Position numbers and translations under genes: made by a program. Under the pieces are notes generated by a model that had not been told where the DNA came from, did no database searches, and saw only the letters and a program-made list of their open reading frames with translations. Positions 16,688-28,331 of a stretch of 64,000 nucleotides of DNA are shown piece after piece. Positions within the stretch are counted from its first letter, which is position 1. Every line of letters begins with the position of its first letter. Source of the DNA: Planktothrix tepida (GTDB lineage Bacteria; Cyanobacteriota; Cyanobacteriia; Cyanobacteriales; Microcoleaceae); the NCBI RefSeq assembly GCF_904830955.1, contig NZ_LR882970.1, one strand, 5' to 3'.

Positions 16688-17845
16688 TCAATTCGGAGGT
16701 TCATCGTGGGTCGAAACAGAACGGAGGCGGCTTAATCGATTGGTTGCCCATTTAGCTAGTTCTTTAACTTCAGGATCAGGATCATCCATAGCTCGCTGTA
16801 AGATTTGATTCATTTGTGTTGCTAAATCATAAATTCGGGTTAAATCTCGAATAGCATTTTTTCTAACTTCGGCATTTTCATCTTGGAGAGACAAACTTAA
16901 GGCGCGGCTCAGGGGTTTTAACGTGCGAGTTCCAATTTCTGAGAGGGCAGCTAAAACTAAACTGCGTTGATTAGAATCAGAATAGATTAATAACTCTAAT
17001 AACGGTTGAATGGCTCTCGAATCTCCTGCTTGTGCCAGTTCCCAAATTGCATTACTTCTAATATCAGGACTGGTCTGTTTTAAATCATTAATCCATCGTT
17101 CCTGGGGATCAAGCCTCAGTCCATAGGAGGGTGGGTGAAGATTGACCGTATCCGTTACAGGGATATTCGCTCCTAGGGGGTTTTCAGAGGTCGTCGGTTG
17201 ATCGGATGGGGTATCGGGGGTAGAAACCTGTAATGTCGCGTCTCGATAACCATTCTGTTCTACAGGAGCCGGAGGCTGTGACCGTTGGAGAACGGTGGGA
17301 GAAACTTGCATCTGTCCCTGGGTAATGGCTTTAACCTGTACCGATGGTGGGGGAGATGGTATTTTTGGGGGTTCAGGGAGATTTTCTGGAACCGTTTGCG
17401 CCTCAATATCCACCACTGTACCTTCATCCTCATTAGGAGGACTGATCAGCCGAATTAAGATTAAAATGGCTCCGACCGTAATCACTAAAGCTCCTACCCC
17501 TAGGATTAACATCCGTGAGGGGAAGCGGAAAGATGATTTTTTAGGGGGCTGTTTTTGAGGCTTTTTGGCTGGTGGTTTTTCAGGGTTGCTTTGGGCAATT
17601 TGCCAGGATAAAGCAGAACGCTCTAAATCTGACCCAGCCGTGAGGGGTCGGGTAAAGAGATGGCTGTTTGTGTCTGTGAGATGTTGGGTTTCGTTCTCAA
17701 CCTTCGCAACCGCACTCCCACTGAAGCAGAACGTTCCACCACAGTAGGCAATACAAGCGAATACAAATAAGGTCAGGCGATAAAAAGGAGCCATGAGACT
17801 CAATTGAGTTTGTGATCGACGCTTAGTGGATATCAGGTAAAACAA
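16688..17845 (-). CDS. HEAT-repeat (PBS lyase-like) protein with N-terminal TM and Pro-rich linker
   Basis: The C-terminal half carries repeated ...VR..A..ALG.IG / DPDPEVKELAKWA motifs. Central Pro-rich region PEPPKIPSPPPS. Hydrophobic helix near residue 115. Confidence 0.55.
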   Translation of the reverse strand: MFYLISTKRRSQTQLSLMAPFYRLTLFVFACIAYCGGTFCFSGSAVAKVENETQHLTDTNSHLFTRPLTAGSDLERSALSWQIAQSNPEKPPAKKPQKQPPKKSSFRFPSRMLILGVGALVITVGAILILIRLISPPNEDEGTVVDIEAQTVPENLPEPPKIPSPPPSVQVKAITQGQMQVSPTVLQRSQPPAPVEQNGYRDATLQVSTPDTPSDQPTTSENPLGANIPVTDTVNLHPPSYGLRLDPQERWINDLKQTSPDIRSNAIWELAQAGDSRAIQPLLELLIYSDSNQRSLVLAALSEIGTRTLKPLSRALSLSLQDENAEVRKNAIRDLTRIYDLATQMNQILQRAMDDPDPEVKELAKWATNRLSRLRSVSTHDEPPN

Positions 17846-18031: not shown

Positions 18032-20941
18032 TTGAGGGTTGACTGTTGTTGGTGTGGGCGAGTCGCGCTGATGCACCCTACTCCTTGTCTCCTCCTTTCC
18101 TCTGTTCCCAACACCCTAAAAATAATGGGAGAATCTTTGTCCCCAGATCGTAAATTTATTACTACTGAACCCCTGTTTATGGCAGGAGAAAAAGCCGAAT
18201 CTCAAGTCTGGATGGCGATTTGTCAAAGCTTTGAGCCACGAGATTGTATTGCCTATTGGCGTTATCCGATTTTCTCAAAATTGGGAACCTTTCGGAAAGA
18301 ACCGGATATTTTAATCGTAGATGCAGAATTGGGATTAATTATTATTGAGGTGAAATCAATAACGATTGAGCAAATTCTGGGAATTACAGGTCATCGTTGG
18401 GAACTCCAAGAATTTTATACGACCCAGGCGAACCCCTATCAACAGGCAGAACATCAACTCTTTGCCCTACTGGACTATTGCAATTTAGAAGAGATTCTGC
18501 ATCAGAAGGTTCCGGGTCGTGTCCTCGTCGCCTTACCTCGCATTCTTCACTCTCAATGGCAATACCGGGGATTTGATCGGTTGCCGAGTTCTCCTCCTAT
18601 TCTATTTCAAGAGGATCTGGGGTTTAAGGGGGTCGAATCTTCGATCACAGCAAACACACCCTTTTTCTCGGAACCGTCACCTGTCAACGGTCAAGATTCC
18701 AGTTTAATTGAAAAAATTGAGAATGCACCGTTAGTCACGCGGGGAAGTGAACTTTCTGAGGAACAATGGGGACTGTTAAAGGCGGTCATTAGTGGAACAC
18801 CGTTATTTCGTCCACCGACTCGTCGCTTTTTTTTCAGCCAAACGGATGATTTAGAAACCGCTTTAACCCGCAGTGCGGTCTTAGCTATTGCTAGACAACG
18901 TATTTCTGAACTGGATTTACAACAGGAACAAATTGCCAAAGTGATCCCCCCAGGGCCACAACGAATTCGGGGAATTGCGGGTTCAGGAAAAACGGTGTTA
19001 CTGTGTCAAAAAGCAGCACAAATGCACCTGAAAAATCCTGAATGGGATATTGCGTTTGTATTTTTTAGTCGGAGTTTATATGATCCAATTTTACAACAAA
19101 TTGATCAATGGTTAAGGCGATTTAGTTGCAATCAAATCAGGTATGATCCCCAGAATTCTAAATTAAAAGTTCTTCATGCTTGGGGGGCAAAGGATCAACC
19201 CGGTTTTTATCGCACCATTTGTCAAGCTGCGGGAGTTTGGAGCCAAAGTGTTCAACAAACAACTCGTTCAAACGCGAATGAAGCCTTAGCAGAAGCTTGT
19301 TATCATTTATTAGCATCGGCAACGATTCCCGCTATTTTTGATGCTATTTTAATTGATGAAGGTCAGGATTTTATTGTTGAGGAAGATCTAAAATTTGAGG
19401 GAAAACAGCCCTTTTATTGGATGGCGTATCAAGCCTTACGTCCTGTTCATCGGGAAGAAGACAATAATTCTGAAATTCCTCAAAAACGCTTGATTTGGGC
19501 TTATGATGAAGTTCAAAGTTTAGAAAGTTTAAAAGTGCCGACGGCGAGTGAATTATTTGGAGATGAGTGGGGACAATTAGTTACGGGAGAATATGGCAAC
19601 GGAATTAAAAAAACAGAGATTATGTCTCGATGTTATCGGATTCCAGCCCCGATTTTAACGGCGGCTCATGGGATTGGTTTGGGGTTATTGCGTCCGCAAG
19701 GATTATTAACCGGAATGAAGTGGGCAGAAGATTGGGAAACGATGGGGTATAAAGTCATATTAACAAATTTGAAAGAACCAGAAAATGATCCCCACAATTC
19801 TCCTTTAAAATTGGGCGAAACGATTACCCTTTATCGTCCTGAACACAATTCACCTAATCCTGTATCAGCGTTATGGAAAAAACCTTTAATTGAATTTGAA
19901 GCTTATCGTTCTCGTTCCGAAGAATTAACCGCCTTAAGCGATCGCATTCTATATAACTTAAAAATTGATGGCTTGCGTCCCAGTCGAGAAATTTTAGTCA
20001 TTGTTTTAGGAATGGGATGGGAAGCGATAGAACTTGAAACCAAGATTGCTAACTTTTTAATGCAGCAAGGAATTGATATTTTTATCCCTGGAACACCGGA
20101 CTGTAATATTCTCAAACCGACTTCTAATAATGCCCATGCGAATCAATTTTGGTGTGAAGGCGGGGTAACTATTTCTCGTATTCATCGAGCGAAAGGACAT
20201 GAAGCTGATATGGTTTATTTGGTGGGTTTAGATCAAATTGCGGTTGCTGAAAATAATCTTAATTTCCGTAATCAATTATTTGTGGCGATGACTCGTTCAC
20301 GGGGTTGGCTGAGGTTAAGCGGTTTAGGTTCCTATCCTTTTTATGAAGAATTAGCACGAGTCATTGAAAGCGGAAATACTTTAACGTTTCGTTTACGGTT
20401 TCCCCCCCAACGGGATATTAGCATCACCGATGGCGGAGAACTGCTGCGAAGATATAAGAATGGCGATCGCAATTTTCAAGGCGCAAATCTATCCGCTCTC
20501 GATTTAACGGGGGTGAATTTAAGTCATGCTAATTTAATTGGAGCGAATCTTCAACAAACCAACCTCACCCATGCTAACTTAAATTACGCTAAATTAGTAG
20601 TGGCGAATTTAAGCCAAGCTAACATGACAGGTGCTAATCTACAGCGAGTCAAATGTGTTGGCACTAATTTACAACAGACTCGATTGAATTCTTGTGATTT
20701 GAGTCGTGCAGATCTCAGTCATGCTGATTTGAGTCAGGCGCAATTGGTTCGTGCTAATTTGAAGGATGCTAATTTGAGTGGGACAAATTTAACACAGGCT
20801 GATCTTTCCTATGCTACTCTTCAGGGTGCTGTTGTTAATGAGGCCAACGGCACAGAAGTAATCCTAACAGGGGCAATATTACCCGATGGTTGGATATTTG
20901 CAGGGGCTATCGGACGACCCTCACTGAATCAATTATCATGA
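18032..20941 (+). CDS. NERD domain / superfamily-1 (UvrD-like) helicase / pentapeptide-repeat fusion protein
   Basis: NERD-like N-terminus (PDILIVDAELGLIIIEVKS). Walker A GIAGSGKTVLL, Walker B ILIDEGQDF, and a UvrD motif VI-like TISRIHRAKGHEADMV. The C-terminal about 150 aa are tandem A(N/D)LSxA(N/D)LxxA pentapeptide repeats. The likely true start is the Met at 18125. Confidence 0.7.
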   Translation: MRVDCCWCGRVALMHPTPCLLLSSVPNTLKIMGESLSPDRKFITTEPLFMAGEKAESQVWMAICQSFEPRDCIAYWRYPIFSKLGTFRKEPDILIVDAELGLIIIEVKSITIEQILGITGHRWELQEFYTTQANPYQQAEHQLFALLDYCNLEEILHQKVPGRVLVALPRILHSQWQYRGFDRLPSSPPILFQEDLGFKGVESSITANTPFFSEPSPVNGQDSSLIEKIENAPLVTRGSELSEEQWGLLKAVISGTPLFRPPTRRFFFSQTDDLETALTRSAVLAIARQRISELDLQQEQIAKVIPPGPQRIRGIAGSGKTVLLCQKAAQMHLKNPEWDIAFVFFSRSLYDPILQQIDQWLRRFSCNQIRYDPQNSKLKVLHAWGAKDQPGFYRTICQAAGVWSQSVQQTTRSNANEALAEACYHLLASATIPAIFDAILIDEGQDFIVEEDLKFEGKQPFYWMAYQALRPVHREEDNNSEIPQKRLIWAYDEVQSLESLKVPTASELFGDEWGQLVTGEYGNGIKKTEIMSRCYRIPAPILTAAHGIGLGLLRPQGLLTGMKWAEDWETMGYKVILTNLKEPENDPHNSPLKLGETITLYRPEHNSPNPVSALWKKPLIEFEAYRSRSEELTALSDRILYNLKIDGLRPSREILVIVLGMGWEAIELETKIANFLMQQGIDIFIPGTPDCNILKPTSNNAHANQFWCEGGVTISRIHRAKGHEADMVYLVGLDQIAVAENNLNFRNQLFVAMTRSRGWLRLSGLGSYPFYEELARVIESGNTLTFRLRFPPQRDISITDGGELLRRYKNGDRNFQGANLSALDLTGVNLSHANLIGANLQQTNLTHANLNYAKLVVANLSQANMTGANLQRVKCVGTNLQQTRLNSCDLSRADLSHADLSQAQLVRANLKDANLSGTNLTQADLSYATLQGAVVNEANGTEVILTGAILPDGWIFAGAIGRPSLNQLS

Positions 20942-21135: not shown

Positions 21136-24100
21136 ATGATCACTTTACCTGGCTATCAGATTCTTAACCCGATCTATAATGGTTCGAGAACACTGGTTTA
21201 TCGTGGGATTCGTTTGTCTGATGGTTACCCGGTTGTGATTAAACTATTACGCAGTGAATATCCAACCGTACCCTCTTTGATTGAATTTAGAAATCAATAT
21301 CGCATTGCCAAAGCTCTTAATATATCCGGTATTGTTCCGATTCTGGATTTGGAACCCTATTGTAATGGGTTTGCCTTGATTATGGCTGATCAAGGCTATA
21401 TTTCACTAGCCGATTATTTAGTACAGCGAGAACTAACCTTAAGTGAATTATTAAAAATTGCCATTGAAATTACTCAAATTTTAGAACAATTGTATCAACA
21501 TCGGGTGATTCATAAAGATGTTAAACTGCAAAATATTTTAATTCACCCGGAAACTTTGAAAGTTCAACTGATTGATTTTAGTATTTCTATTCAACTGAAT
21601 CATTCCCATCAAGAAGTTGTTAATTCTCAAGGATTAGAAGGAACTTTAGCTTATATGTCTCCCGAACAAACCGGACGAACCCATCGGGGTATTGATTATC
21701 GCACAGATTTGTATTCTTTAGGCGTAACACTTTATCAATTATTAACTCGAAAACTTCCGTTTCCATCTTCTGATCCCCTAGAATTAATTCATGCTCATTT
21801 AGCCCTGCTTCCTCAGCCTTTAAGCGAAATTAAACCGACCTTACCGATAATGCTCAATAATATTATTTTAAAATTGATGGCTAAAAATCCAGAGGAGCGT
21901 TATCAAACTCCATTAGGACTGCGCTATGATTTAGAAAATTGTTTAGAACAATGGGAAAAACTGGGGGATATTCCTCCGTTTCCTTTGGCGACGATTGACT
22001 TAAATGATCGATTTATTATTCCCAATAAATTTTATGGACGAGAGCCAGAAATTGAGCGTTTAAATTCGATTGTGAACACGGCTCAATCAGAAATTATTGT
22101 AATTACAGGTCAATCAGGAATTGGCAAGTCTTCCCTGGTTCAAGAATTCTATCAAACCGTTGCATATTGTGGAACAGGAGTTTTGCCTATAACTCATTGT
22201 GTCACCTTAGACAGTTATTTTATCACAGGCAAATTTGATCAATTTAAAACGAATACGCCTTTTTGGGGATGGGTACAAGGGATTAAACAATTAATTCAAC
22301 AAGTATTAACTGAACCTTTGGAACAGGTAGAAGCTTGGAAAAAGAAACTTTTAAATGGACTCGGAGATCAAGCCCCGGTTTTAATGGCTGTTATTCCTGA
22401 ACTGAAAGTTTTATTAAATCAACAGTCTTCCCTGACTGAATCAGAGGTTAATCTTGACCTGAATCAATTTAATCGTTTAATTCAAAAGCTAATTCAAACT
22501 TTTGCCAAACCTCATCATCCCTTAGTCATTTTTTTAGATGATTTACAATGGGCAGATGTTGAATCCTTACGATTAATTCAGGTTTTGATGAGTCCTGAAC
22601 AAAATATTTATTCTACACCTCCAACCTTAGTGCTAATTTTAGCGTATCGGGATGACGAGATCGGGGAAACACATCCTTTAATTAAAATCTTAGAAACCTT
22701 AGAAAATTCAGGAATTCCCTTACATCGAATTCCTTTAAATGCTTTAGAAGATTCTGCGATTAATCAACTAATAGCAGAAACATTAGTTTGTTCCTTAGAC
22801 CGGGCTAAACCTTTGGCAGAATTAGTCAGTCAAAAAACTCAAGGAAATCCTTTTTTTGTTCGTCAATTTCTACAAACCTTATATACAGAAGAACTAATTT
22901 GGTTTAATCCGCCTCAATCTTCCTTAAAAAATCGAAATTTATTCGGAGGTTGGCAATGTAATTTAACTCAAATTAAAACCCGTTCGATTAACTCTAATAT
23001 TTTAGATTTAATTCTTCATCAATTACAACAATTACCTCCAGACACCCAAGAAATTTTAAAAATTGCGGCTTGTTTAGGAAATCAATTTAATGCCGTAGAT
23101 TTAGCTACCGTAACTGAAAAAACTTATTTAGAAACATTAAAAGCTTTAGAAATTGCTTTACAGGCTCAATTTATTGTTATTGCTAGAGATATTTATCCCT
23201 TTTATTCCTTAGAAACTGAAGTATTTTCCCCTCCACACTTTGATCCAAATGAAACCTTACCGTTGTTACAGCCCGGTATTGATAAATACCAATTTATTCA
23301 TGACCGAGTTCAACAAGCTGCTTATCTTTTAATTCCAACTCATCAACGACAAGCGACTCATTTAAAAATCGGAAATTCGCTTTTAAATCAAATCAAAAAA
23401 CAATATTTTAATCAATCCATTAAGATTATTTTACATATAATTTCAACCGAAGTTTTATTAAATATCATTAATCAACTCAATTTAGGAGTAGGCTTAATTC
23501 AGGATCAAAAAGAACGAGATCAATTAGCCTTATTTAATTTAATAGCCGGACAAAAAGCGAAAATTGCCACCGCCTATCCGACAGCTATTGGACATTTAGC
23601 GATTGGTCTGGGGTTATTGGTAACGGAGAGTTGGGAACGAGACTATCAATTAACATTAGAATTATACACAGAAGCAGCAGAAATTGCTTATCTCAGCCAA
23701 GATTGGGAAAATTTACACAAGTGGGGAAATATTGTTTTAGAAAATGTTAAAATATTCGGGCATAAAGTAAGAATTTATGAATTAATGATTCAAGCTTATA
23801 GGAGCCAAAATCAAGATCACAATGCGGTCAATCTTGCGTTAGCTGTTTGTCAACAATTAGGGTTCACCTGGGGTGATAATTTTAGTGAAGAAAGTTGGCA
23901 GGAATTCAAGCATAATTTTATTAAAAATTTAGGGGGAAGAACACCCTTAGCATTATTAGATTTACCCGAATTATCTAATACTAATTTAGTAAATTTATTT
24001 AGAATTTTAACCTCTGCTTTTCCTTCTGCTTATCGGGTAATTCCCAAACAATTCCCATTTTGGGTTTTAAAACTGGTTCATTTATCCTATCAACAAGGAA

Positions 24101-27100
24101 ATACAACGTTATCAAGTTTTGTCTATGCTGTATTTGGATTTATTCTTTGTACGCAAGGGGAAATTGAGTTCGGAAATCAAATGGGAGAATTAGCTTTAGA
24201 ATTATCGCAAAAACAAGCAAATTTTGCAATAATTATCAAAGTTAAACAACTGGTTTATCGGTTTATTAAACCTTGGAAAACTTCCTTAAAGCAGATTTTA
24301 TCTCCTCTCAAAACTTGCTATTTACAAGCTCAAGAAGCCGGGAGAATTGATGAAGCTTATTGTCTTGCTCAAGCTTATCTTGAAATCGCTTATTTCACGG
24401 GAAACGATGTCTCTGAATTGGAGCTTGAATTGAGTCGGTGTTTAAATCAGTTACAAAATTTTAAATCTCCGTCAGAACTATTAATTTTTACAACCTATCA
24501 TCAAAGCTTGCAAATTTTAAATGGAAAATTAGAGGGAGACACCTCATTAAATTTTACGGGTCATGCTGAAAACGGGACAATAGGAACGACTGAAATTGGA
24601 TATTCTTCCCAGGAAATTCCTTTTGAACTTAGTTTAAATTTCATGGTTCTGAATTATAGATTAGATAGATTACAACAGGCGAAGGAATGGTCTCAGCAAG
24701 CTGAATGCTATTTAAACAAAGACACCTATTTTGTTTTACAACCGTTTTTTTATTGTTATCAATCTTTAATTGATTTAGCAATCTACCCGGAGTTATCGTC
24801 AGAAGACCAAGTTAAAATTTCAGAAAAAGTAACTCAAAACCAAGAAAAATTAAAAGCTTTTTCTCAGGGGACTCCGATGAACTTTTCCCATCTATTTTAT
24901 TTGGTGGAGGCAGAATTTAACCACATTCAAGGAGATTATATTAAAGCCATTGAAGCTTATGAACAAGCGATTATGCTGGCTAAAACCTATCAGTTTATTC
25001 AGGAAGAAGCTTTAGCAGAGGAATTAGCGGCTAAATTTTATTTAGATTGGGGAAAAGAAAAAATTGCCAGGGTTTATTTAATTGATGCTTATTATAGTTA
25101 TGCTCATTGGGGTGCTTTTGCCAAAGTGAAGGATTTAGAATCTCGTTATCCTCAACTTTTAAATTCTATTTTAGCACAACTTGTTATTCCCACAACAGGA
25201 ACAACAATCAGTAATAATACGACAGAAACCATTATTTCTAGTAGTCATGGAGGTTCGGCTGCTCTCGATTTAGCAACGGTGACAAAAGCTTCTCAAGCTT
25301 TATCTCAAGAAATCGATTTAGAACAACTCTTGAAACGATTAATTCAAGTGGTGATTGAAAACGCAGGAGCCGAAAAATGTTGTATTCTTTTATCTAAATC
25401 GGGAAAATTAGCGATAGAAGCAATAGCCAGTTTAAATCCGATTAACGGAGGGTCTATTGAGATTGAATCCTTATTAAAATCTGTTTCTGTAGAGCAAAGT
25501 AATGCCTTACCTTTATTGATTCTGAATACCGTGATTCAAACCCAAGAGTTTATGATTTTAGCAGATGCTCGTCAAGAATCTCGGTATCGTAATGATCCTT
25601 ATTTAATAGAACATCAATCCAAATCAATCCTCATGACTCCCATTCAAAATCGGGGGAAATTGATTGGAATTCTGTACCTTGAAAATAACTTAGCAACCGC
25701 AGTGTTTACTCCAGAACGATTAGAAGTCCTCAAAATTCTGTTTTCTCAAGCCGCGATTTCCATTGACAATGCTAAACTTTATTCTCAAGTTCGCAATAAT
25801 GAACAACAGATGACGCAATTCTTAGAAGGAATTCCGGTTGGCGTTGCTGTTTTAGACCCTACGGGTAAACCCTATTTTACCAATCAAAAAGCTCAACAAT
25901 TGCTCAAAACTAAAGTCACTCCTGGATTATTTTGTGAAGCTTTATCTAATATTTATCAAGCTTATCTCAATTGGTGTCAACAGCATCAATTTGATCAATT
26001 AACACCTTATTGTGATTTATATAATCCTACACCCGATACCACGTTTATTTTAGAAGTGAATCAGGGAGAACAAACGATATTGCTTGAAAATTGGGTGACA
26101 CCGACTTATGATGAAGAGGGGGATTTAATGTATGCGATTCTAGCGTTCCAAGATATAACAAAACGTCAGCAAACAGAACTGGCTTTAAGGCAAGCTGAAG
26201 AAAAATATCGCAGTATATTTGAAAATGCCAGTGAAGGCTTATTTCAAACCACCAGGGAGGGGCATTATATCAGTGCAAATCCTGCCTTGGCGAAGATTTT
26301 AGGTTATGATTCTCCCTGGGATTTAATGTCAACGGTGAGGAATGTTGAAGAACAAATTTATGTAGATTCTCAACGCCGATTAGATTTTATACAATTAATT
26401 GATCAACAAGGGGAAGTTTCAGGATTTGAATTTAAAGCCTACCGCAAAGATGGCAGCATTATTTGGATTTCAGAAAATGCACGGGCTGTCTTTAATGATA
26501 AAAATGAATTACTTTATTATGAAGGGTTTGTCGTTGATATTACAGAACGAAAAACTGCCGAAGAAGAACGCTTACAATTTATGGCAAAACTTTCAGAATT
26601 GAATCATCATTTAGATGAAGCGTTAGATTCGGAATTTGAACTGACGGATGCAGCGGCGCGATTTGTTCCCCATGAATTTTTATCTTTTTTAGGTTATGAA
26701 AGTATTGTGGAAGTTCAGTTAGGGGCAGCAGTTCAAAAAGAAATGTCGATTTTATTTGCTGATATTCGGGATTTTACCAGTCTTTCTGAAGATATGACTC
26801 CTGAAGATAATTTTAAATTTATTAATGCGTTTTTAAGCCGTATGGAACCTGCCATCGTCGAAAATTATGGTTTTATTGATAAATATATTGGGGATGAAAT
26901 TATGGCATTATTTGGCGGGTCTGCTGATGATGCAGTTCGGGCTGGGATTTCAATGATTAGCCGACTGAATGAGTATAATGAAACCCGACAACGCCCCGAA
27001 CGTCCTCCGATTAAAATTGGGATTGGTATTAATACCGGAGGATTAATGTTAGGAATTGTGGGGGGTAAAAATCGACTGGATAGTACGGTTATTAGTGATT

Positions 27101-27462
27101 CGGTCAATGTCGCTTCTCGCATTGAGAATTTAACAAAAAATTATGGGGTGTCTTTATTAATTACCCATCCCACTTTTATGGCTTTAGAAAATGCCAACGA
27201 GTATGCAATTCGGATTATTGATCGAGTCAAAGTCAAAGGAAAATCCGATGCGGTAACGGTATATGAAGTATTTGATTCAGATTTGCCGGAAATAAAAGCT
27301 GGAAAACTTCGGACAAAAACCACCTTTGAATATGGATTAATGCAATATTATTTAGAACGTTACTCAGAGGCTGCCAGATTATTCCAAGAATGCCTACATC
27401 ACCTCCCTATGGATAAAGTTGCTCAAATTTATTTAGAACGCTGTTTATCTAAAATGTTCTAA
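21136..27462 (+). CDS. multidomain signalling protein: Ser/Thr kinase-like domain, AAA_16 (STAND) ATPase, TPR-like helical region, GAF, PAS, class III adenylate/guanylate cyclase
   Basis: Kinase subdomains VVIKLL, HKDVKLQNILI, DFS, SPEQ. The P-loop is GQSGIGKSS and the Walker B is FLDDLQWAD. GAF region around LEQLLKRLIQVV..ILYLEN. PAS around EEKYRSIFENASEGLF. Cyclase motifs FADIRDFTSL, KYIGDEIMALFG, IGINTGGLMLGIVGG, SVNVASRIE. Confidence 0.8.
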   Translation: MITLPGYQILNPIYNGSRTLVYRGIRLSDGYPVVIKLLRSEYPTVPSLIEFRNQYRIAKALNISGIVPILDLEPYCNGFALIMADQGYISLADYLVQRELTLSELLKIAIEITQILEQLYQHRVIHKDVKLQNILIHPETLKVQLIDFSISIQLNHSHQEVVNSQGLEGTLAYMSPEQTGRTHRGIDYRTDLYSLGVTLYQLLTRKLPFPSSDPLELIHAHLALLPQPLSEIKPTLPIMLNNIILKLMAKNPEERYQTPLGLRYDLENCLEQWEKLGDIPPFPLATIDLNDRFIIPNKFYGREPEIERLNSIVNTAQSEIIVITGQSGIGKSSLVQEFYQTVAYCGTGVLPITHCVTLDSYFITGKFDQFKTNTPFWGWVQGIKQLIQQVLTEPLEQVEAWKKKLLNGLGDQAPVLMAVIPELKVLLNQQSSLTESEVNLDLNQFNRLIQKLIQTFAKPHHPLVIFLDDLQWADVESLRLIQVLMSPEQNIYSTPPTLVLILAYRDDEIGETHPLIKILETLENSGIPLHRIPLNALEDSAINQLIAETLVCSLDRAKPLAELVSQKTQGNPFFVRQFLQTLYTEELIWFNPPQSSLKNRNLFGGWQCNLTQIKTRSINSNILDLILHQLQQLPPDTQEILKIAACLGNQFNAVDLATVTEKTYLETLKALEIALQAQFIVIARDIYPFYSLETEVFSPPHFDPNETLPLLQPGIDKYQFIHDRVQQAAYLLIPTHQRQATHLKIGNSLLNQIKKQYFNQSIKIILHIISTEVLLNIINQLNLGVGLIQDQKERDQLALFNLIAGQKAKIATAYPTAIGHLAIGLGLLVTESWERDYQLTLELYTEAAEIAYLSQDWENLHKWGNIVLENVKIFGHKVRIYELMIQAYRSQNQDHNAVNLALAVCQQLGFTWGDNFSEESWQEFKHNFIKNLGGRTPLALLDLPELSNTNLVNLFRILTSAFPSAYRVIPKQFPFWVLKLVHLSYQQGNTTLSSFVYAVFGFILCTQGEIEFGNQMGELALELSQKQANFAIIIKVKQLVYRFIKPWKTSLKQILSPLKTCYLQAQEAGRIDEAYCLAQAYLEIAYFTGNDVSELELELSRCLNQLQNFKSPSELLIFTTYHQSLQILNGKLEGDTSLNFTGHAENGTIGTTEIGYSSQEIPFELSLNFMVLNYRLDRLQQAKEWSQQAECYLNKDTYFVLQPFFYCYQSLIDLAIYPELSSEDQVKISEKVTQNQEKLKAFSQGTPMNFSHLFYLVEAEFNHIQGDYIKAIEAYEQAIMLAKTYQFIQEEALAEELAAKFYLDWGKEKIARVYLIDAYYSYAHWGAFAKVKDLESRYPQLLNSILAQLVIPTTGTTISNNTTETIISSSHGGSAALDLATVTKASQALSQEIDLEQLLKRLIQVVIENAGAEKCCILLSKSGKLAIEAIASLNPINGGSIEIESLLKSVSVEQSNALPLLILNTVIQTQEFMILADARQESRYRNDPYLIEHQSKSILMTPIQNRGKLIGILYLENNLATAVFTPERLEVLKILFSQAAISIDNAKLYSQVRNNEQQMTQFLEGIPVGVAVLDPTGKPYFTNQKAQQLLKTKVTPGLFCEALSNIYQAYLNWCQQHQFDQLTPYCDLYNPTPDTTFILEVNQGEQTILLENWVTPTYDEEGDLMYAILAFQDITKRQQTELALRQAEEKYRSIFENASEGLFQTTREGHYISANPALAKILGYDSPWDLMSTVRNVEEQIYVDSQRRLDFIQLIDQQGEVSGFEFKAYRKDGSIIWISENARAVFNDKNELLYYEGFVVDITERKTAEEERLQFMAKLSELNHHLDEALDSEFELTDAAARFVPHEFLSFLGYESIVEVQLGAAVQKEMSILFADIRDFTSLSEDMTPEDNFKFINAFLSRMEPAIVENYGFIDKYIGDEIMALFGGSADDAVRAGISMISRLNEYNETRQRPERPPIKIGIGINTGGLMLGIVGGKNRLDSTVISDSVNVASRIENLTKNYGVSLLITHPTFMALENANEYAIRIIDRVKVKGKSDAVTVYEVFDSDLPEIKAGKLRTKTTFEYGLMQYYLERYSEAARLFQECLHHLPMDKVAQIYLERCLSKMF

Positions 27463-27476
27463 GTCTTTGATATGAT

Positions 27477-28016
27477 TTGAACAATCCTTTGTGTGTTGAA
27501 CGATTACCCAGTATGAGCGATCTGTATATTTCAGCGACGGAATACCACCACAAAATTGAAACCTTAGCCGTAAAAATTTATCAGTCTCAATGGCAATTTA
27601 ATCAAATTGTCTGTTTAGCGAGGGGAGGGTTACGAGTCGGGGATATTCTTTCTCGGATTTTTGAACAACCGATGGCGATTTTAGCGACATCATCTTATCA
27701 TGGGCTAGGGGGAAAAGTTCGAGGCGCGATCAAAATTGCTGAACACTTAACTATGACCACAGACACCTTGGGAAGTCACGTTTTATTAGTGGATGATTTA
27801 GTCGATTCTGGGATTAGTTTACAAGAATCTATCCGGTGGTTGAAATCCCGTTATCCTCAAATCCAAGAGATGAAAACGGCTGTTCTCTGGTATAAAAGTT
27901 GTTCAGTAATGGCTCCCGATTATTTTGTGGATTATCTGGCGGATAACCCTTGGATTCATCAACCCTTTGAATGTTATGAAAACATGAATTTAGCCGAGTT
28001 GGAACAGCCGGGTTAA
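27477..28016 (+). CDS. gpt: xanthine-guanine phosphoribosyltransferase-like (type I PRTase)
   Basis: ARGGLRVG..ILATSSYH..VLLVDDLVDSGISL..PWIHQPFE is colinear with the E. coli Gpt PRPP-binding and hood regions as I recall them. It starts 15 bp after the megaprotein stop. Confidence 0.65.
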   Translation: MNNPLCVERLPSMSDLYISATEYHHKIETLAVKIYQSQWQFNQIVCLARGGLRVGDILSRIFEQPMAILATSSYHGLGGKVRGAIKIAEHLTMTTDTLGSHVLLVDDLVDSGISLQESIRWLKSRYPQIQEMKTAVLWYKSCSVMAPDYFVDYLADNPWIHQPFECYENMNLAELEQPG

Positions 28017-28043
28017 ACAAGATGACTAATCGCTTTTTCTCAC

Positions 28044-28105
28044 CCCCTGTTCCCTATTTTCTTTTCCCTTCTGTTCCCTGTTCCCAGTTAAGCTGTTCCC
28101 TCTTC
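28044..28105. repeat. (GGGAACA)n-family tandem repeat (reverse orientation: CCCTGTTCC)
   Basis: CCCCCTGTTCCCTATTTTCTTTTCCCTTCTGTTCCCTGTTCCCAG..GCTGTTCCCTCTTCC. Confidence 0.7.
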
Positions 28106-28259
28106 CTCTCGATAGATTGTAAAATCTTAATTTTATCGATGTAAAATATTTGATTTTCTTAACATCTGGGGAACACACAATTTAAAAATCCTGTGTTATC
28201 TTAAAAAGCGTAAACACTGAACGCATTAAACCGTTTAGGGAGCCAAGGAGGTGATGCCC

Positions 28260-28331
28260 ATGATTGAAAGTAGTAAACGCATGGGTCGCCGGATTGGAAA
28301 ATGCCGACTGTGCGCCGGGGCTGTCATCTAG
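28260..28331 (+). other. candidate 23-codon small ORF / leader with strong SD upstream of phhB
   Basis: AAGGAGG at 28245-28251, 8 nt before ATG 28260. Encodes MIESSKRMGRRIGKCRLCAGAVI*. Lies in a 500-bp 5' region that also has extensive pairing potential. Confidence 0.25.

What the first reader, a model, noticed from the sequence alone, without database searches (positions are those of the whole stretch)
18032..20941. NERD nuclease-related domain fused to SF1 helicase and a DNA-mimic-like pentapeptide-repeat tail
One 969-aa ORF combines a NERD-like N-terminal module, a UvrD/Rep-type helicase core (GSGKT, IDEGQDF, motif VI RAKGHEAD) and about 30 consecutive pentapeptide repeats (A(N/D)LSxA(N/D)L...). 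Pentapeptide-repeat proteins (Qnr/MfpA type) fold as DNA-mimicking beta-helices. Fusion to a NERD-helicase is an unusual architecture that could function in DNA surveillance or defence. It sits directly upstream of the kinase-cyclase megaprotein.
Basis: partly seen in the sequence, partly recalled or inferred. Interest (0 to 1): 0.55.

Follow-up and report, generated by a model that had tools for sequence, protein, structure and literature searches.

The report
NERD nuclease-helicase with pentapeptide-repeat tail
This Planktothrix gene encodes one protein that joins a DNA-cutting domain, a UvrD-type DNA motor and a rigid pentapeptide-repeat rod; it is a cyanobacterial, chromosomally fixed offshoot of a nuclease-helicase family that otherwise travels on plasmids and is related to a known anti-phage helicase, so it is a moderately interesting variant, not a new kind of system.

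Summary
The real CDS is 18125..20941 (938 aa; the TTG at 18032 is only the first possible start). It has three parts:
- an N-terminal NERD PD-(D/E)xK nuclease with an intact D..ExK motif;
- a complete UvrD/Rep-like SF1A helicase;
- a C-terminal beta-solenoid of 27-29 pentapeptide repeats.

The AlphaFold2 model is confident (pLDDT 89.9, pTM 0.90).

The NERD-helicase core belongs to a sizeable family (408 clusters at E<1e-30). Most members are about 720 aa, tail-less and standalone, and sit on plasmids or beside transposases in bacteria and archaea. Its helicase core is a sister of the helicase in the validated Helicase+DUF2290 anti-phage system, but no DUF2290 partner is present here.

The repeat tail was gained once, in a single clade of mainly filamentous cyanobacteria, where about 50 of the species-representative genomes scanned carry a copy. 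There the gene is syntenic and diverges at about the rate of its neighbours.

The tail is nearly uncharged (median -2) and scores far below the Qnr/MfpA cut-offs, so DNA mimicry is doubtful. The adjacency to the kinase-cyclase gene is found only in Planktothrix.

Most likely function: a single-chain ATP-driven nuclease-helicase for surveillance of foreign or aberrant DNA, with the repeat rod as a docked accessory or regulatory module. This is a new variant of a known kind.

The parts
18125..20941 (+). Complete CDS (938 aa plus stop) of the NERD / SF1A helicase / pentapeptide-repeat protein. The longest ORF begins at TTG 18032, but orthologues support ATG 18125.
   Evidence: (100% identical to NCBI 'pentapeptide repeat-containing protein [Planktothrix pseudagardhii]', 938 aa).
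18125..18619 (+). NERD (PD-(D/E)xK) nuclease domain, aa 1-165. Catalytic D61 is at 18305-18307, and E75-x-K77 is at 18347-18355.
   Evidence: PF08378 E=3.9e-8, 34.2 bits > GA 22.1 on the isolated domain. PADLOC RTasNERD-Hel 2.5e-7. D/E/K conserved in 61/51/50 of 70 relatives. Alpha/beta fold with pLDDT mostly above 90.
18620..18874 (+). Poorly conserved linker region, aa 166-250, with two low-confidence stretches.
   Evidence: 32% mean identity among distant orthologues, against 59-64% for the flanking domains. pLDDT 51-54 at aa 170-190 and 236-244.
18875..20419 (+). UvrD/Rep-like SF1A helicase core, aa 251-765. Motif I GIAGSGKT (18971-18994), II LIDEGQDF (19349-19372), III AYDEVQS, IV CYRIP, V HRAKGHEAD (20183-20209), VI VAMTRSRG (20282-20305).
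20468..20899 (+). Pentapeptide-repeat right-handed beta-solenoid, aa 782-925, 27-29 repeats (about 7 coils). It is preceded by a capping helix at aa 769-778.
   Evidence: PF00805 4.8e-34. PDB sequence hits to HetL/All3740 and Np275/276. Regular strand every 5 residues with pLDDT 91-98. Foldseek top hits 3du1 and 2j8k. Register and face conservation.
16688..17845 (-). Divergently transcribed HEAT-repeat protein. It is the only neighbour conserved beyond the genus (15 loci). No functional link has been shown.
21136..27462 (+). Ser/Thr kinase / AAA_16 / TPR / GAF / PAS / adenylate-guanylate cyclase protein (2108 aa). It is adjacent only in Planktothrix and is not considered part of the system.

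Best explanation
**What the gene encodes.** It encodes a self-contained, ATP-driven nuclease-helicase.
- A UvrD/Rep-type SF1A motor is expected to load on single-stranded DNA or DNA ends and translocate 3'->5'.
- An N-terminal NERD PD-(D/E)xK nuclease is expected to cut the DNA that the motor feeds or exposes.
- This resembles AddAB, AdnAB and RecB in logic, but in one chain and with the nuclease at the N-terminus.

**Where it comes from.** The NERD-helicase core belongs to a family that is mostly a standalone, horizontally mobile gene on plasmids and beside transposons. Its helicase is a sister of the helicase in the Helicase+DUF2290 anti-phage system. In that system the N-terminal domain has lost the ExK residues and a separate DUF2290 protein is required.

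**The C-terminal slot.** The C-terminus of the family is variable. It carries nothing in most members, an S24 LexA-like peptidase or a MIT_C/PLD-like domain in single sampled members, and pentapeptide repeats in this clade.
- In one cyanobacterial clade this slot acquired, once, a seven-coil pentapeptide-repeat solenoid.
- The gene then became a fixed, vertically inherited chromosomal gene.
- The solenoid is most likely a rigid accessory module whose first coils dock on the enzyme through a conserved hydrophobic/lysine face.
- Its distal coils would be free to bind a partner or to regulate access to DNA.
- It is unlikely to be a free acidic DNA mimic of the Qnr/MfpA type.

**Shown versus inferred.**
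- Shown: domain identities, intact catalytic motifs, phylogenetic origin, synteny, and absence of a partner gene.
- Inferred: polarity, substrate, defence versus repair role, and the role of the tail.
For: **Domains and motifs.**

**Structure.** The model is confident, including domain arrangement (pLDDT 89.9, pTM 0.90). Structural neighbours are AdnB, Rep, UvrD1, AddAB and HelD.

**Family size and shape.** 408 50%-identity clusters at E<1e-30; most of the near-complete ones listed are 700-750 aa and tail-less.

**Mobile context of tail-less relatives.**
- They occur on plasmids of Deinococcus, Nostoc, Leptolyngbya and haloarchaea, named by PGAP 'nuclease-related domain-containing DEAD/DEAH box helicase'.
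- They sit next to IS elements, integrases, a Mu-type transposase with AAA_22, DUF790 with a helicase, an exonuclease and WYL. No partner gene is conserved.

**Link to Helicase+DUF2290.**
- Relatives at about 30% identity are followed by a DUF2290 gene.
- They hit PDLC03002 over its full length (2.1e-294 and 3.7e-168).
- The query and the Deinococcus NERD-helicase hit only the core (260-268 bits).
- That system blocks phage T7 (PMC9122126).

**Variable terminal fusions.** Peptidase_S24, MIT_C, DUF4145.

**Tail origin and behaviour.**
- All tailed proteins form one clade on the NERD+helicase tree.
- Exterior residues on face 4 are the most conserved (0.75 against 0.59-0.65), with I/V/K in coils 1-3.

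**Defence-type flank.** In Coleofasciculaceae the downstream flank is a variable region containing GmrSD, C5 methylase, AAA_15/21, DUF2442, DUF433 and Uma2.
Against: **Against a typical defence gene.**
- The tailed clade does not look like one. It is syntenic within families: HEAT upstream and PRTase downstream in the Planktothrix/Lyngbya group, and SAH hydrolase, ExoD and VTT upstream in Coleofasciculaceae.
- It diverges at a rate between its two neighbours.
- The window itself has no recognisable defence genes next to it.
- PADLOC would not call a system from this protein alone.
- No phage record carries a homologue.
- The lactococcal Helicase+DUF2290 homologue gave no protection in one test (PMC11381338).

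**Limits on the tail inference.**
- The docking of the tail is inferred from conservation and pTM only. Coordinates and PAE were not available.
- No experimental data exist for any member of the NERD-helicase family.
Confidence: 0.5

Rival explanations
1. Housekeeping DNA-repair or recombination enzyme. After domestication, the tailed protein would act as a chromosomal end-resection or stalled-fork-processing nuclease-helicase, a functional analogue of AddAB/AdnAB/RecBCD. The repeat solenoid would mediate dimerisation or contact with a replisome or repair partner.
For: - Conserved chromosomal position and vertical inheritance; divergence comparable to flanking genes.
- The closest structural neighbours are repair helicase-nucleases AdnB, AddAB, UvrD1 and Rep.
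- A family member carries a LexA-like S24 peptidase, which points to DNA-damage signalling.
- No mobile elements lie next to the tailed copies in Planktothrix.
Against: - In the scan the tailed gene turned up only in one cyanobacterial clade, and the Nostoc hits were tail-less. The scan used a few exact peptide patterns, so this is a lower bound.
- The wider family is plasmid- and transposon-borne and patchy across bacteria and archaea.
- Its nearest characterised relative is an anti-phage helicase.
- In Coleofasciculaceae it borders a restriction-type variable region.
Confidence: 0.3
2. The pentapeptide tail would be a Qnr/MfpA-like DNA mimic. It would either plug the enzyme's own DNA-binding groove (cis auto-inhibition released by real substrate) or target the enzyme to gyrase or topoisomerase complexes.
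For: - The fold class is the same as MfpA, Qnr and AlbG (Foldseek hits 2bm5, 2xtx, 2xt2).
- Weak sequence hits to Qnr/MfpA models.
- The high pTM suggests a fixed position beside the motor.
Against: - Net charge of the tail is +1 here, with a median of -2 over 93 orthologues. DNA mimics are strongly acidic (established knowledge of MfpA, Ocr and ArdA).
- Scores of 32-36 bits fall far short of family cut-offs of 240-460.
- The best matches are ordinary cyanobacterial Rfr-type proteins, HetL and Np275/276.
- The most conserved exterior face is hydrophobic/lysine, not acidic.
Confidence: 0.12
3. Functional module with the downstream kinase / AAA_16 / GAF / PAS / cyclase megaprotein. Nucleotide signalling would be coupled to a nuclease-helicase effector.
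For: - Same strand, 195-bp gap, and no terminator-like site found between the two genes.
- The adjacency is kept in 6 Planktothrix-group loci.
Against: - The adjacency is absent outside Planktothrix. In Lyngbya, Limnoraphis and Capilliphycus an alpha-2-macroglobulin gene follows the helicase, one Planktothrix MAG lacks the kinase gene, and other lineages have unrelated genes there.
- The terminator scan gives no more sites than shuffled sequence, so its silence is uninformative.
Confidence: 0.03

Closest known systems
Tail-less 'nuclease-related domain-containing DEAD/DEAH box helicase' family (PGAP name; NERD + UvrD-like helicase, about 720 aa)
   Same: Collinear homology over NERD, linker and helicase at 40-50% identity. 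It has the same catalytic motifs, is a single-gene module, and is the phylogenetic parent of the tailed clade.
   Different: It has no C-terminal solenoid. It is plasmid- or transposon-associated and patchy across Deinococcus, Nostoc, Leptolyngbya and haloarchaea, whereas the tailed clade is chromosomal and syntenic (against 17, 35).
Helicase of the Helicase+DUF2290 anti-phage system (Rousset et al. 2022; PADLOC PDLC03002)
   Same: Homologous SF1A helicase core: about 30% identity over aa 248-759, PADLOC E=8.6e-78.
   Different: Only profile positions 173-643 of 707 match (260 bits against 559-976 for true members). Its N-terminal domain is at best a degenerate NERD lacking ExK. It needs an adjacent DUF2290 gene, which is absent from the window and from all 59 related loci. 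It has no repeat tail.
AddAB / AdnAB / RecB helicase-nucleases
   Different: In those enzymes the nuclease is C-terminal and of the RecB family, and they work as heterodimers or trimers. Here the nuclease is an N-terminal NERD in a single chain. Sequence identity is only 12-21%.
Qnr / MfpA / AlbG pentapeptide-repeat DNA mimics
   Same: The same right-handed quadrilateral beta-helix fold.
   Different: Those are standalone proteins of about 200 aa and (from the literature) acidic dimers that bind gyrase. This tail is fused, near neutral, and scores far below their family cut-offs.
Cyanobacterial Rfr-type pentapeptide proteins (HetL/All3740, Np275/276)
   Same: These are the closest sequence and structure matches of the tail, at 31-40% identity. 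This suggests the tail was recruited from the large cyanobacterial pool of such proteins.
   Different: Those are standalone proteins. HetL equivalog score is 93 bits against a cut-off of 260.
Gabija GajB and other defence UvrD-like helicases; RT-associated NERD-helicase (PADLOC RTasNERD-Hel, C3a187 'NERD+UvrD')
   Same: Same general domain classes. The NERD+UvrD architecture is already catalogued among defence candidates (PMC9226505).
   Different: Matches are weak and partial (GajB 1.7e-8 on the C-terminal 55 aa; C3a187 3.5e-17 on aa 284-448). No GajA/OLD protein or reverse transcriptase was seen among the neighbours scanned.

Membership tests
NERD (PF08378) PD-(D/E)xK nuclease | Profile match above the Pfam gathering score | tested here: met
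   The isolated aa 1-175 gives E=3.9e-8, 34.2 bits against GA 22.1, covering 2-106 of 111 profile positions. 9 of 10 diverse family N-termini also hit. The match was missed in the full-length scan.
NERD (PF08378) PD-(D/E)xK nuclease | Catalytic D ... (D/E)-x-K residues | tested here: met
   D61, E75 and K77 lie in 'EPDILIVD...IIIEVKS'. They are conserved in 61, 51 and 50 of 70 relatives.
NERD (PF08378) PD-(D/E)xK nuclease | Metal-dependent nuclease activity | not testable with these tools
   Needs biochemistry.
SF1A UvrD/Rep-like helicase | Helicase motifs I, II, III, IV, V, VI | tested here: met
   GIAGSGKT, LIDEGQDF, AYDEVQS, CYRIP, HRAKGHEAD and VAMTRSRG are present. The key residues are invariant in 70 sequences.
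SF1A UvrD/Rep-like helicase | Pfam UvrD-family domain above gathering score | tested here: met
   UvrD_C_2 gives 42.5 bits against GA 27.4. PF00580 (UvrD N-terminal) did not hit the query, although it hits relatives P0124 and P0232.
SF1A UvrD/Rep-like helicase | Fold closest to UvrD/Rep/PcrA rather than SF1B or SF2 | tested here: met
Pentapeptide-repeat family (PF00805) | Tandem A(D/N)LXX repeats forming a right-handed quadrilateral beta-helix | tested here: met
   PF00805 4.8e-34. 27 in-register repeats. Predicted solenoid with pLDDT 91-98. HetL and Np275/276 are the top fold matches.
Qnr/MfpA-type DNA-mimic pentapeptide proteins | Score above the NCBIfam family cut-off | tested here: not met
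   Qnr gives 35.9 bits against 240; MfpA gives 32.2 against 360; the QnrA/B/S/C/D/VC/E models give 22-35 bits against cut-offs of 425-500.
Qnr/MfpA-type DNA-mimic pentapeptide proteins | Strongly negative, DNA-like surface | tested here: not met
   Only net charge was computed, not a surface map. It is +1 for this tail, with a median of -2 (range -8..+3) in 93 orthologues.
Qnr/MfpA-type DNA-mimic pentapeptide proteins | Binding and protection of DNA gyrase/topoisomerase | not testable with these tools
   Needs pull-down or gyrase assays.
Helicase+DUF2290 anti-phage system | Full-length match to the system's helicase model (PADLOC PDLC03002) | tested here: not met
   The query matches profile positions 173-643 of 707 only (260 bits). 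Genuine members match 1-702 with 559-976 bits.
Helicase+DUF2290 anti-phage system | Adjacent DUF2290 gene | tested here: not met
   phmmer with two DUF2290 proteins found nothing at E<=1 against six-frame ORFs of the window and of 59 related loci.
Gabija (GajA+GajB) | GajB-like helicase with an adjacent OLD/TOPRIM GajA | tested here: not met
   The GajB models hit only about 55 C-terminal residues (best 1.7e-8). No OLD/TOPRIM protein is among the neighbours.
STM2767 family helicase (NF053713) | Score above the equivalog cut-off | tested here: not met
   83.6 bits against a cut-off of 550.
Tail-less NERD-helicase family (PGAP 'nuclease-related domain-containing DEAD/DEAH box helicase') | Collinear NERD + helicase homology over the whole core | tested here: met
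   40-50% identity over query aa 10-766 to Nostoc, Leptolyngbya, Deinococcus and Phormidium proteins. The NERD HMM built here hits the Deinococcus protein at 3.2e-41. The tailed clade nests inside this family.
Tail-less NERD-helicase family (PGAP 'nuclease-related domain-containing DEAD/DEAH box helicase') | Protein ends after helicase domain 2A (about 700-750 aa) | tested here: not met
   The query carries about 170 extra residues of cap helix plus pentapeptide solenoid.

The most novel reading that the evidence does not exclude
The pentapeptide solenoid would be a built-in regulator or sensor that tamed a mobile, potentially self-toxic nuclease-helicase. That would have allowed the gene to be fixed in the chromosome of mainly filamentous cyanobacteria. 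The solenoid could gate the DNA-binding groove until a phage- or damage-derived cue displaces it, or it could recognise an invader or topoisomerase protein. If so, this would be the first assigned function for a fused pentapeptide-repeat domain in a nucleic-acid enzyme, and a possible single-chain immune sensor.
Probability: 0.15. Interest if true: 0.65.

Novelty: new variant of a known kind. Interest (0 to 1): 0.38.

Why it matters
- **Pentapeptide-repeat proteins.** They are very abundant in cyanobacteria, yet few have a known function. A clade in which the solenoid is welded, once and stably, to a nuclease-helicase with intact catalytic motifs offers a tractable handle on what such a domain does, by comparing ATPase, unwinding and cleavage with and without the tail.
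- **Domestication of a mobile module.** This appears to be a plasmid- or transposon-borne, defence-type nuclease-helicase that became a fixed chromosomal gene.
- **Helicase+DUF2290 system.** The finding places that system's helicase in a wider family in which an active NERD domain in cis may replace the DUF2290 partner. That suggests a testable idea for the unknown mechanism of the system.
- **Limits.** None of this is surprising enough to change current views. NERD+UvrD architectures and pentapeptide fusions in conflict systems are both already catalogued.

Tried and rejected
- **Full-length Pfam scan.** It gave no NERD hit. Re-scanning the isolated domain resolved this.
- **Conserved partner gene.**
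  - Clustering ORFs from 59 loci found only lineage-level synteny.
  - Plasmid contexts of tail-less relatives share no neighbour.
  - A DUF2290 search was negative.
- **Kinase-cyclase link.** Rejected because the synteny is genus-restricted.
- **Phage origin.** tblastn against 50,697 phage records found nothing.
- **Close solved homologue.**
  - The PDB sequence search hit only the repeat tail.
  - Foldseek full-length hits (SLFN11, RecD, Dna2, UvrD) have TM of 0.33 or less.
- **Literature.**
  - Searches for pentapeptide + NERD + helicase, and for pentapeptide + helicase + cyanobacteria, found no description of this fusion.
  - The STM2767 papers only mention a Salmonella deletion marker.
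  - The Druantia and ZwsA papers were opened and are not about this family.
- **Individual loci.**
  - A look-up of tail-less P0123 gave only a 2.5-kb contig with no context.
  - The Chondrocystis plasmid hit annotated 'pentapeptide repeat protein' is a truncated 535-aa copy without a tail. The name is an annotation transfer.
- **Scans and failed jobs.**
  - The promoter/terminator scan gave no more sites than shuffled sequence.
  - One MAFFT run timed out and was rerun with faster settings.
- **Not done.** Electrostatic surface, PAE and inter-domain contacts could not be examined, because model coordinates are not exposed.


Full report
**1. The observation**

The window has one long ORF at 18032..20941 on the + strand (969 codons from a TTG). 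The first ATG is at 18125 and gives a 938-aa product. That product is 100% identical to an NCBI protein named 'pentapeptide repeat-containing protein [Planktothrix pseudagardhii]'. Orthologue N-termini align from this ATG, so I take 18125..20941 as the CDS. Residue numbers below use the 938-aa numbering.

**2. Domains**

*Scan of the full protein.*
- Pfam gave Pentapeptide (4.8e-34), Pentapeptide_4 and UvrD_C_2 (5.7e-11, above gathering), but no NERD.
- PADLOC gave 'Helicase' PDLC03002 at 8.6e-78 over the helicase core, 'C3a187 NERD+UvrD' at 3.5e-17, and 'RTasNERD-Hel' at 2.5e-7 on the N-terminal region. The GajB hits were weak and C-terminal only.
- NCBIfam gave only sub-threshold hits: Alr5209, HetL, PipB, Qnr and MfpA pentapeptide models, and the STM2767 helicase at 83.6 bits against a cut-off of 550.

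*NERD domain.* When the N-terminal 175 residues were scanned alone, NERD (PF08378) passed with E=3.9e-8 and 34.2 bits against a gathering score of 22.1. Eight of nine other diverse family N-termini also hit. The catalytic PD-(D/E)xK signature D61...E75-x-K77 is present, and it is conserved in 61, 51 and 50 of 70 relatives.

*Helicase motifs.* All six SF1 motifs are intact and their key residues are invariant or nearly invariant:

| Motif | Sequence |
|---|---|
| I | GIAGSGKT |
| II | LIDEGQDF |
| III | AYDEVQS |
| IV | CYRIP |
| V | HRAKGHEAD |
| VI | VAMTRSRG |

**3. Structure**

An AlphaFold2 model built from a 70-sequence alignment is confident: mean pLDDT 89.9 and pTM 0.90. Its layout is:
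- an alpha/beta NERD fold (aa 1-165);
- a weakly predicted linker;
- the helicase (aa 251-765);
- a cap helix (aa 769-778);
- a perfectly regular solenoid with one short strand every five residues (aa 783-924).

In register I count 27 pentapeptides from aa 787, and 29 strand positions overall.

**4. Family and origin**

*The tailed protein.* Full-length homologues at 53-84% identity occur in about 50 of the species-representative genomes scanned, nearly all labelled as cyanobacteria. The genera include Planktothrix, Kamptonema, Tychonema, Microcoleus, Limnoraphis, Lyngbya, Capilliphycus, Coleofasciculus, Symploca, Allocoleopsis, Argonema, Trichocoleus, Cyanosarcina, Waterburya and Stenomitos.

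*The wider family.*
- A HMMER search of 1.84 billion cluster representatives with only NERD+helicase (aa 1-764) found 408 clusters at E<1e-30 and 886 at E<1e-10.
- Most of the near-complete proteins among the best 150 listed are 700-750 aa and lack a repeat tail. Many of the others are shorter fragments.
- Only P0062, P0121, P0122, P0132 and a few fragments have a tail.
- On a neighbour-joining tree of the core, all tailed proteins form one clade nested among tail-less ones. The tail was therefore gained once.

*Other terminal additions.* Other members carry Peptidase_S24 or MIT_C at the C-terminus, DUF4145 or a second NERD at the N-terminus, or a second UvrD helicase. The termini of this family are variable slots.

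**5. Context of tail-less relatives**

- tblastn against 72,556 plasmids found 58 records. Full-length NERD-helicases at 27-46% identity lie on plasmids of Nostoc, Leptolyngbya, Calothrix, Deinococcus, Gloeocapsopsis and haloarchaea. PGAP names most of them 'nuclease-related domain-containing DEAD/DEAH box helicase'.
- Their neighbours differ from case to case: IS21, IS4 and IS1595 transposases, DUF790 with a DEAD helicase, a 3'-5' exonuclease, and WYL. No partner is shared.
- Chromosomal tail-less copies in Nostoc and Phormidium sit beside tyrosine integrases, an IS4/5 transposase, and a Mu-type transposase with an AAA_22 ATPase.
- No phage record has a homologue.

**6. Link to a validated defence system**

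More distant plasmid hits (about 30% identity over aa 248-759, in Acinetobacter, Lactococcus, E. coli and others) are about 712-aa proteins followed immediately by a DUF2290 gene.

| Protein | Match to PADLOC PDLC03002 | Score |
|---|---|---|
| Acinetobacter helicase (DUF2290 neighbour) | full length, 1-702 of 707 | 2.1e-294, 976 bits |
| Lactococcus helicase (DUF2290 neighbour) | nearly full length, 27-699 of 707 | 3.7e-168, 559 bits |
| This protein | core only, 173-643 of 707 | 8.6e-78, 260 bits |
| Deinococcus NERD-helicase | core only, 194-646 of 707 | 3.8e-80, 268 bits |

The Lactococcus neighbour scanned matches the PADLOC DUF2290 models. PDLC03002 is therefore the helicase of the Helicase+DUF2290 system, which inhibits phage T7 (Rousset et al. 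2022, PMC9122126). A lactococcal homologue gave no protection in one screen (PMC11381338).

The N-terminal domain of the DUF2290-type helicases matches my NERD HMM only faintly (9 bits) and lacks the ExK residues. No DUF2290 gene exists in the window or in the 59 related loci. This protein is therefore a sister of that helicase, not a member of that system.

**7. Context of the tailed gene**

*In the window.* The neighbours are petC/petA, an alpha/beta hydrolase, a divergent HEAT-repeat gene, then the target, then the kinase/AAA_16/GAF/PAS/cyclase gene, a phosphoribosyltransferase, a pterin dehydratase, a GAF-HD protein and a major-vault-protein homologue.

*Across loci.*
- HEAT (15 loci) and PRTase (14 loci) are the conserved neighbours in the Planktothrix/Limnoraphis/Lyngbya/Kamptonema group.
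- The kinase-cyclase gene is present only in 6 Planktothrix-group loci.
- In Lyngbya, Limnoraphis and Capilliphycus a 1916-aa alpha-2-macroglobulin follows the helicase and the (repositioned) PRTase.
- In Coleofasciculaceae and allies the upstream side is conserved: MscS, SAH hydrolase, ExoD, VTT/DedA, and YflT- and BON-domain proteins.
- The downstream side there is variable. In several loci it holds GmrSD type IV restriction enzymes, C5 cytosine methylases, AAA_15/AAA_21 ATPases, DUF2442, DUF433 and Uma2.

*Rate of divergence.* Identity of the target between genera (58-61% to the Lyngbya group) lies between that of HEAT (28-47%) and PRTase (67-70%). This fits vertical descent with its neighbours.

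*Conclusion.* The tailed gene behaves as a fixed chromosomal gene. In one lineage it borders a restriction-type variable region.

**8. The tail**

- Its best sequence and fold matches are ordinary cyanobacterial Rfr-type proteins (HetL/All3740, Np275/276 and designs derived from them).
- Net charge is +1 here, with a median of -2 (range -8..+3) in 93 orthologues. The core is -16.
- Among distant orthologues the tail is less conserved (44%) than NERD (59%) or the helicase (64%).
- One of its four faces has clearly more conserved exterior residues (0.75 against 0.59-0.65). These include I/V and K in coils 1-3, next to the helicase.
- Together with pTM 0.90, this suggests that the proximal coils pack against the enzyme, or against a second copy, while the distal coils stay free.
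- This argues against a free acidic DNA mimic of the MfpA/Qnr kind. It is compatible with a scaffold, oligomerisation or regulatory role.
- The literature I could search describes pentapeptide repeats as variable modules in conflict systems (PMC7159879, PMC10853773). It does not describe this fusion.

**9. Interpretation**

*Most likely (about 0.5).* This is a single-chain ATP-dependent nuclease-helicase derived from a mobile, defence-type family. It has been kept in the chromosome of one cyanobacterial clade, with a docked pentapeptide solenoid as an accessory or regulatory module. Its target would be foreign or aberrant DNA.

*Main rival (about 0.3).* After fixation it serves DNA repair or recombination. 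The evidence for this is its synteny, its clock-like divergence, and AdnAB/AddAB being its nearest folds.

*Minor possibilities.* The DNA-mimic reading (about 0.12) and coupling to the kinase-cyclase gene (about 0.03).

*What is shown.* Domain identities, intact motifs, single origin of the tail, lack of a partner gene, and the synteny patterns.

*What is inferred.* Polarity, substrate, biological role and the function of the tail.

**10. Novelty and score**

NERD+UvrD architectures are already listed among defence candidates (PADLOC C3a187; the RT-associated NERD-helicase in PMC9226505). PGAP already names the core family, and NCBI already annotates the protein itself.

What has not been described, as far as the searchable literature shows, is threefold:
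- the stable pentapeptide-solenoid fusion;
- its single origin and chromosomal fixation;
- its sister relationship to the Helicase+DUF2290 helicase.

I rate it a new variant of a known kind, with interest 0.38.

Noticed in passing
window 30686-33304 (-): An 872-aa protein has strong matches to eukaryote-type Major Vault Protein domains (Vault 2.3e-66, MVP_shoulder 1.1e-53, Vault_2/3/4). Bacterial and cyanobacterial MVP homologues are already reported (bioRxiv 10.1101/872010; PMC3762200).
   Followed up: partly
window 21136-27462 (+): A 2108-aa Ser/Thr kinase / AAA_16 (STAND-like) / TPR / GAF / PAS / adenylate-guanylate cyclase protein. At this position it occurs only in Planktothrix-group loci. 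In Lyngbya and Limnoraphis a 1916-aa bacterial alpha-2-macroglobulin follows the helicase instead, so the DNA just downstream of the helicase gene looks like a variable insertion slot.
   Followed up: partly
window 27477-30560 (+): A phosphoribosyltransferase (27477-28016), a pterin-4a-carbinolamine dehydratase (28534-28815) and a GAF + HD/HD_5 (HD-GYP-like) protein (28917-30560) follow the kinase-cyclase gene. All three are syntenic across Planktothrix.
   Followed up: no
L019 12179-13512 and L030 12648-13675 (Coleofasciculus MAGs): A Uma2-family putative restriction endonuclease gene on the opposite strand abuts the 3' end of the orthologue. In L019 a separate 202-aa pentapeptide-repeat ORF follows it; in L030 the tblastn match to the tail also continues beyond it. 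This looks like an insertion into, or duplication of, the tail-coding region.
   Followed up: partly
L052 9995-12489 (Endozoicomonas MAG): A tail-less NERD-helicase 43% identical to the cyanobacterial protein lies in a gammaproteobacterial symbiont. It is split into two ORFs of 474 and 346 aa, so it is probably a frameshifted pseudogene and evidence of horizontal transfer.
   Followed up: no
L051 12899-15961 and L046 12523-14347 (Nostoc): Tail-less paralogues sit directly beside a Mu-type transposase plus AAA_22 ATPase (Tn7-like pair), or beside two tyrosine integrases. This suggests they travel as cargo of transposons or integrative elements.
   Followed up: partly
L064 1842-3980 and L065 2603-4750 (Acinetobacter and Lactococcus plasmids): The N-terminal domain of the Helicase+DUF2290 helicases aligns faintly with the NERD profile built here (9 bits). 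It keeps the first aspartate but lacks the ExK residues. It may be a degenerate NERD whose function moved to the DUF2290 partner.
   Followed up: partly
P0155, P0192, P0124 (family members): Other members of the NERD-helicase family carry a C-terminal LexA-like Peptidase_S24, a C-terminal MIT_C (PLD-like) domain, or an N-terminal DUF4145. This pattern of variable accessory domains is typical of conflict systems.
   Followed up: no
L011 12779-14461, L012 4779-6461, L014 12826-14511: A GmrSD-type (DUF262/DUF1524) type IV restriction enzyme lies immediately downstream of the orthologue in three Coleofasciculaceae-group loci. It hits PADLOC 'Orf5' at E=9.6e-225.
   Followed up: partly
window 18125-20941; plasmid records AP018319.1, AP018205.1, AP018291.1, AP018283.1: Two annotation artefacts. 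First, a full-length Pfam scan misses the NERD domain that the isolated domain passes. Second, the matches in several plasmid records end with the helicase (the Chondrocystis one is truncated), yet the genes are labelled 'pentapeptide repeat protein', probably by name transfer from tailed homologues; the query lacked the tail, so only the truncated Chondrocystis copy was inspected directly.
   Followed up: yes
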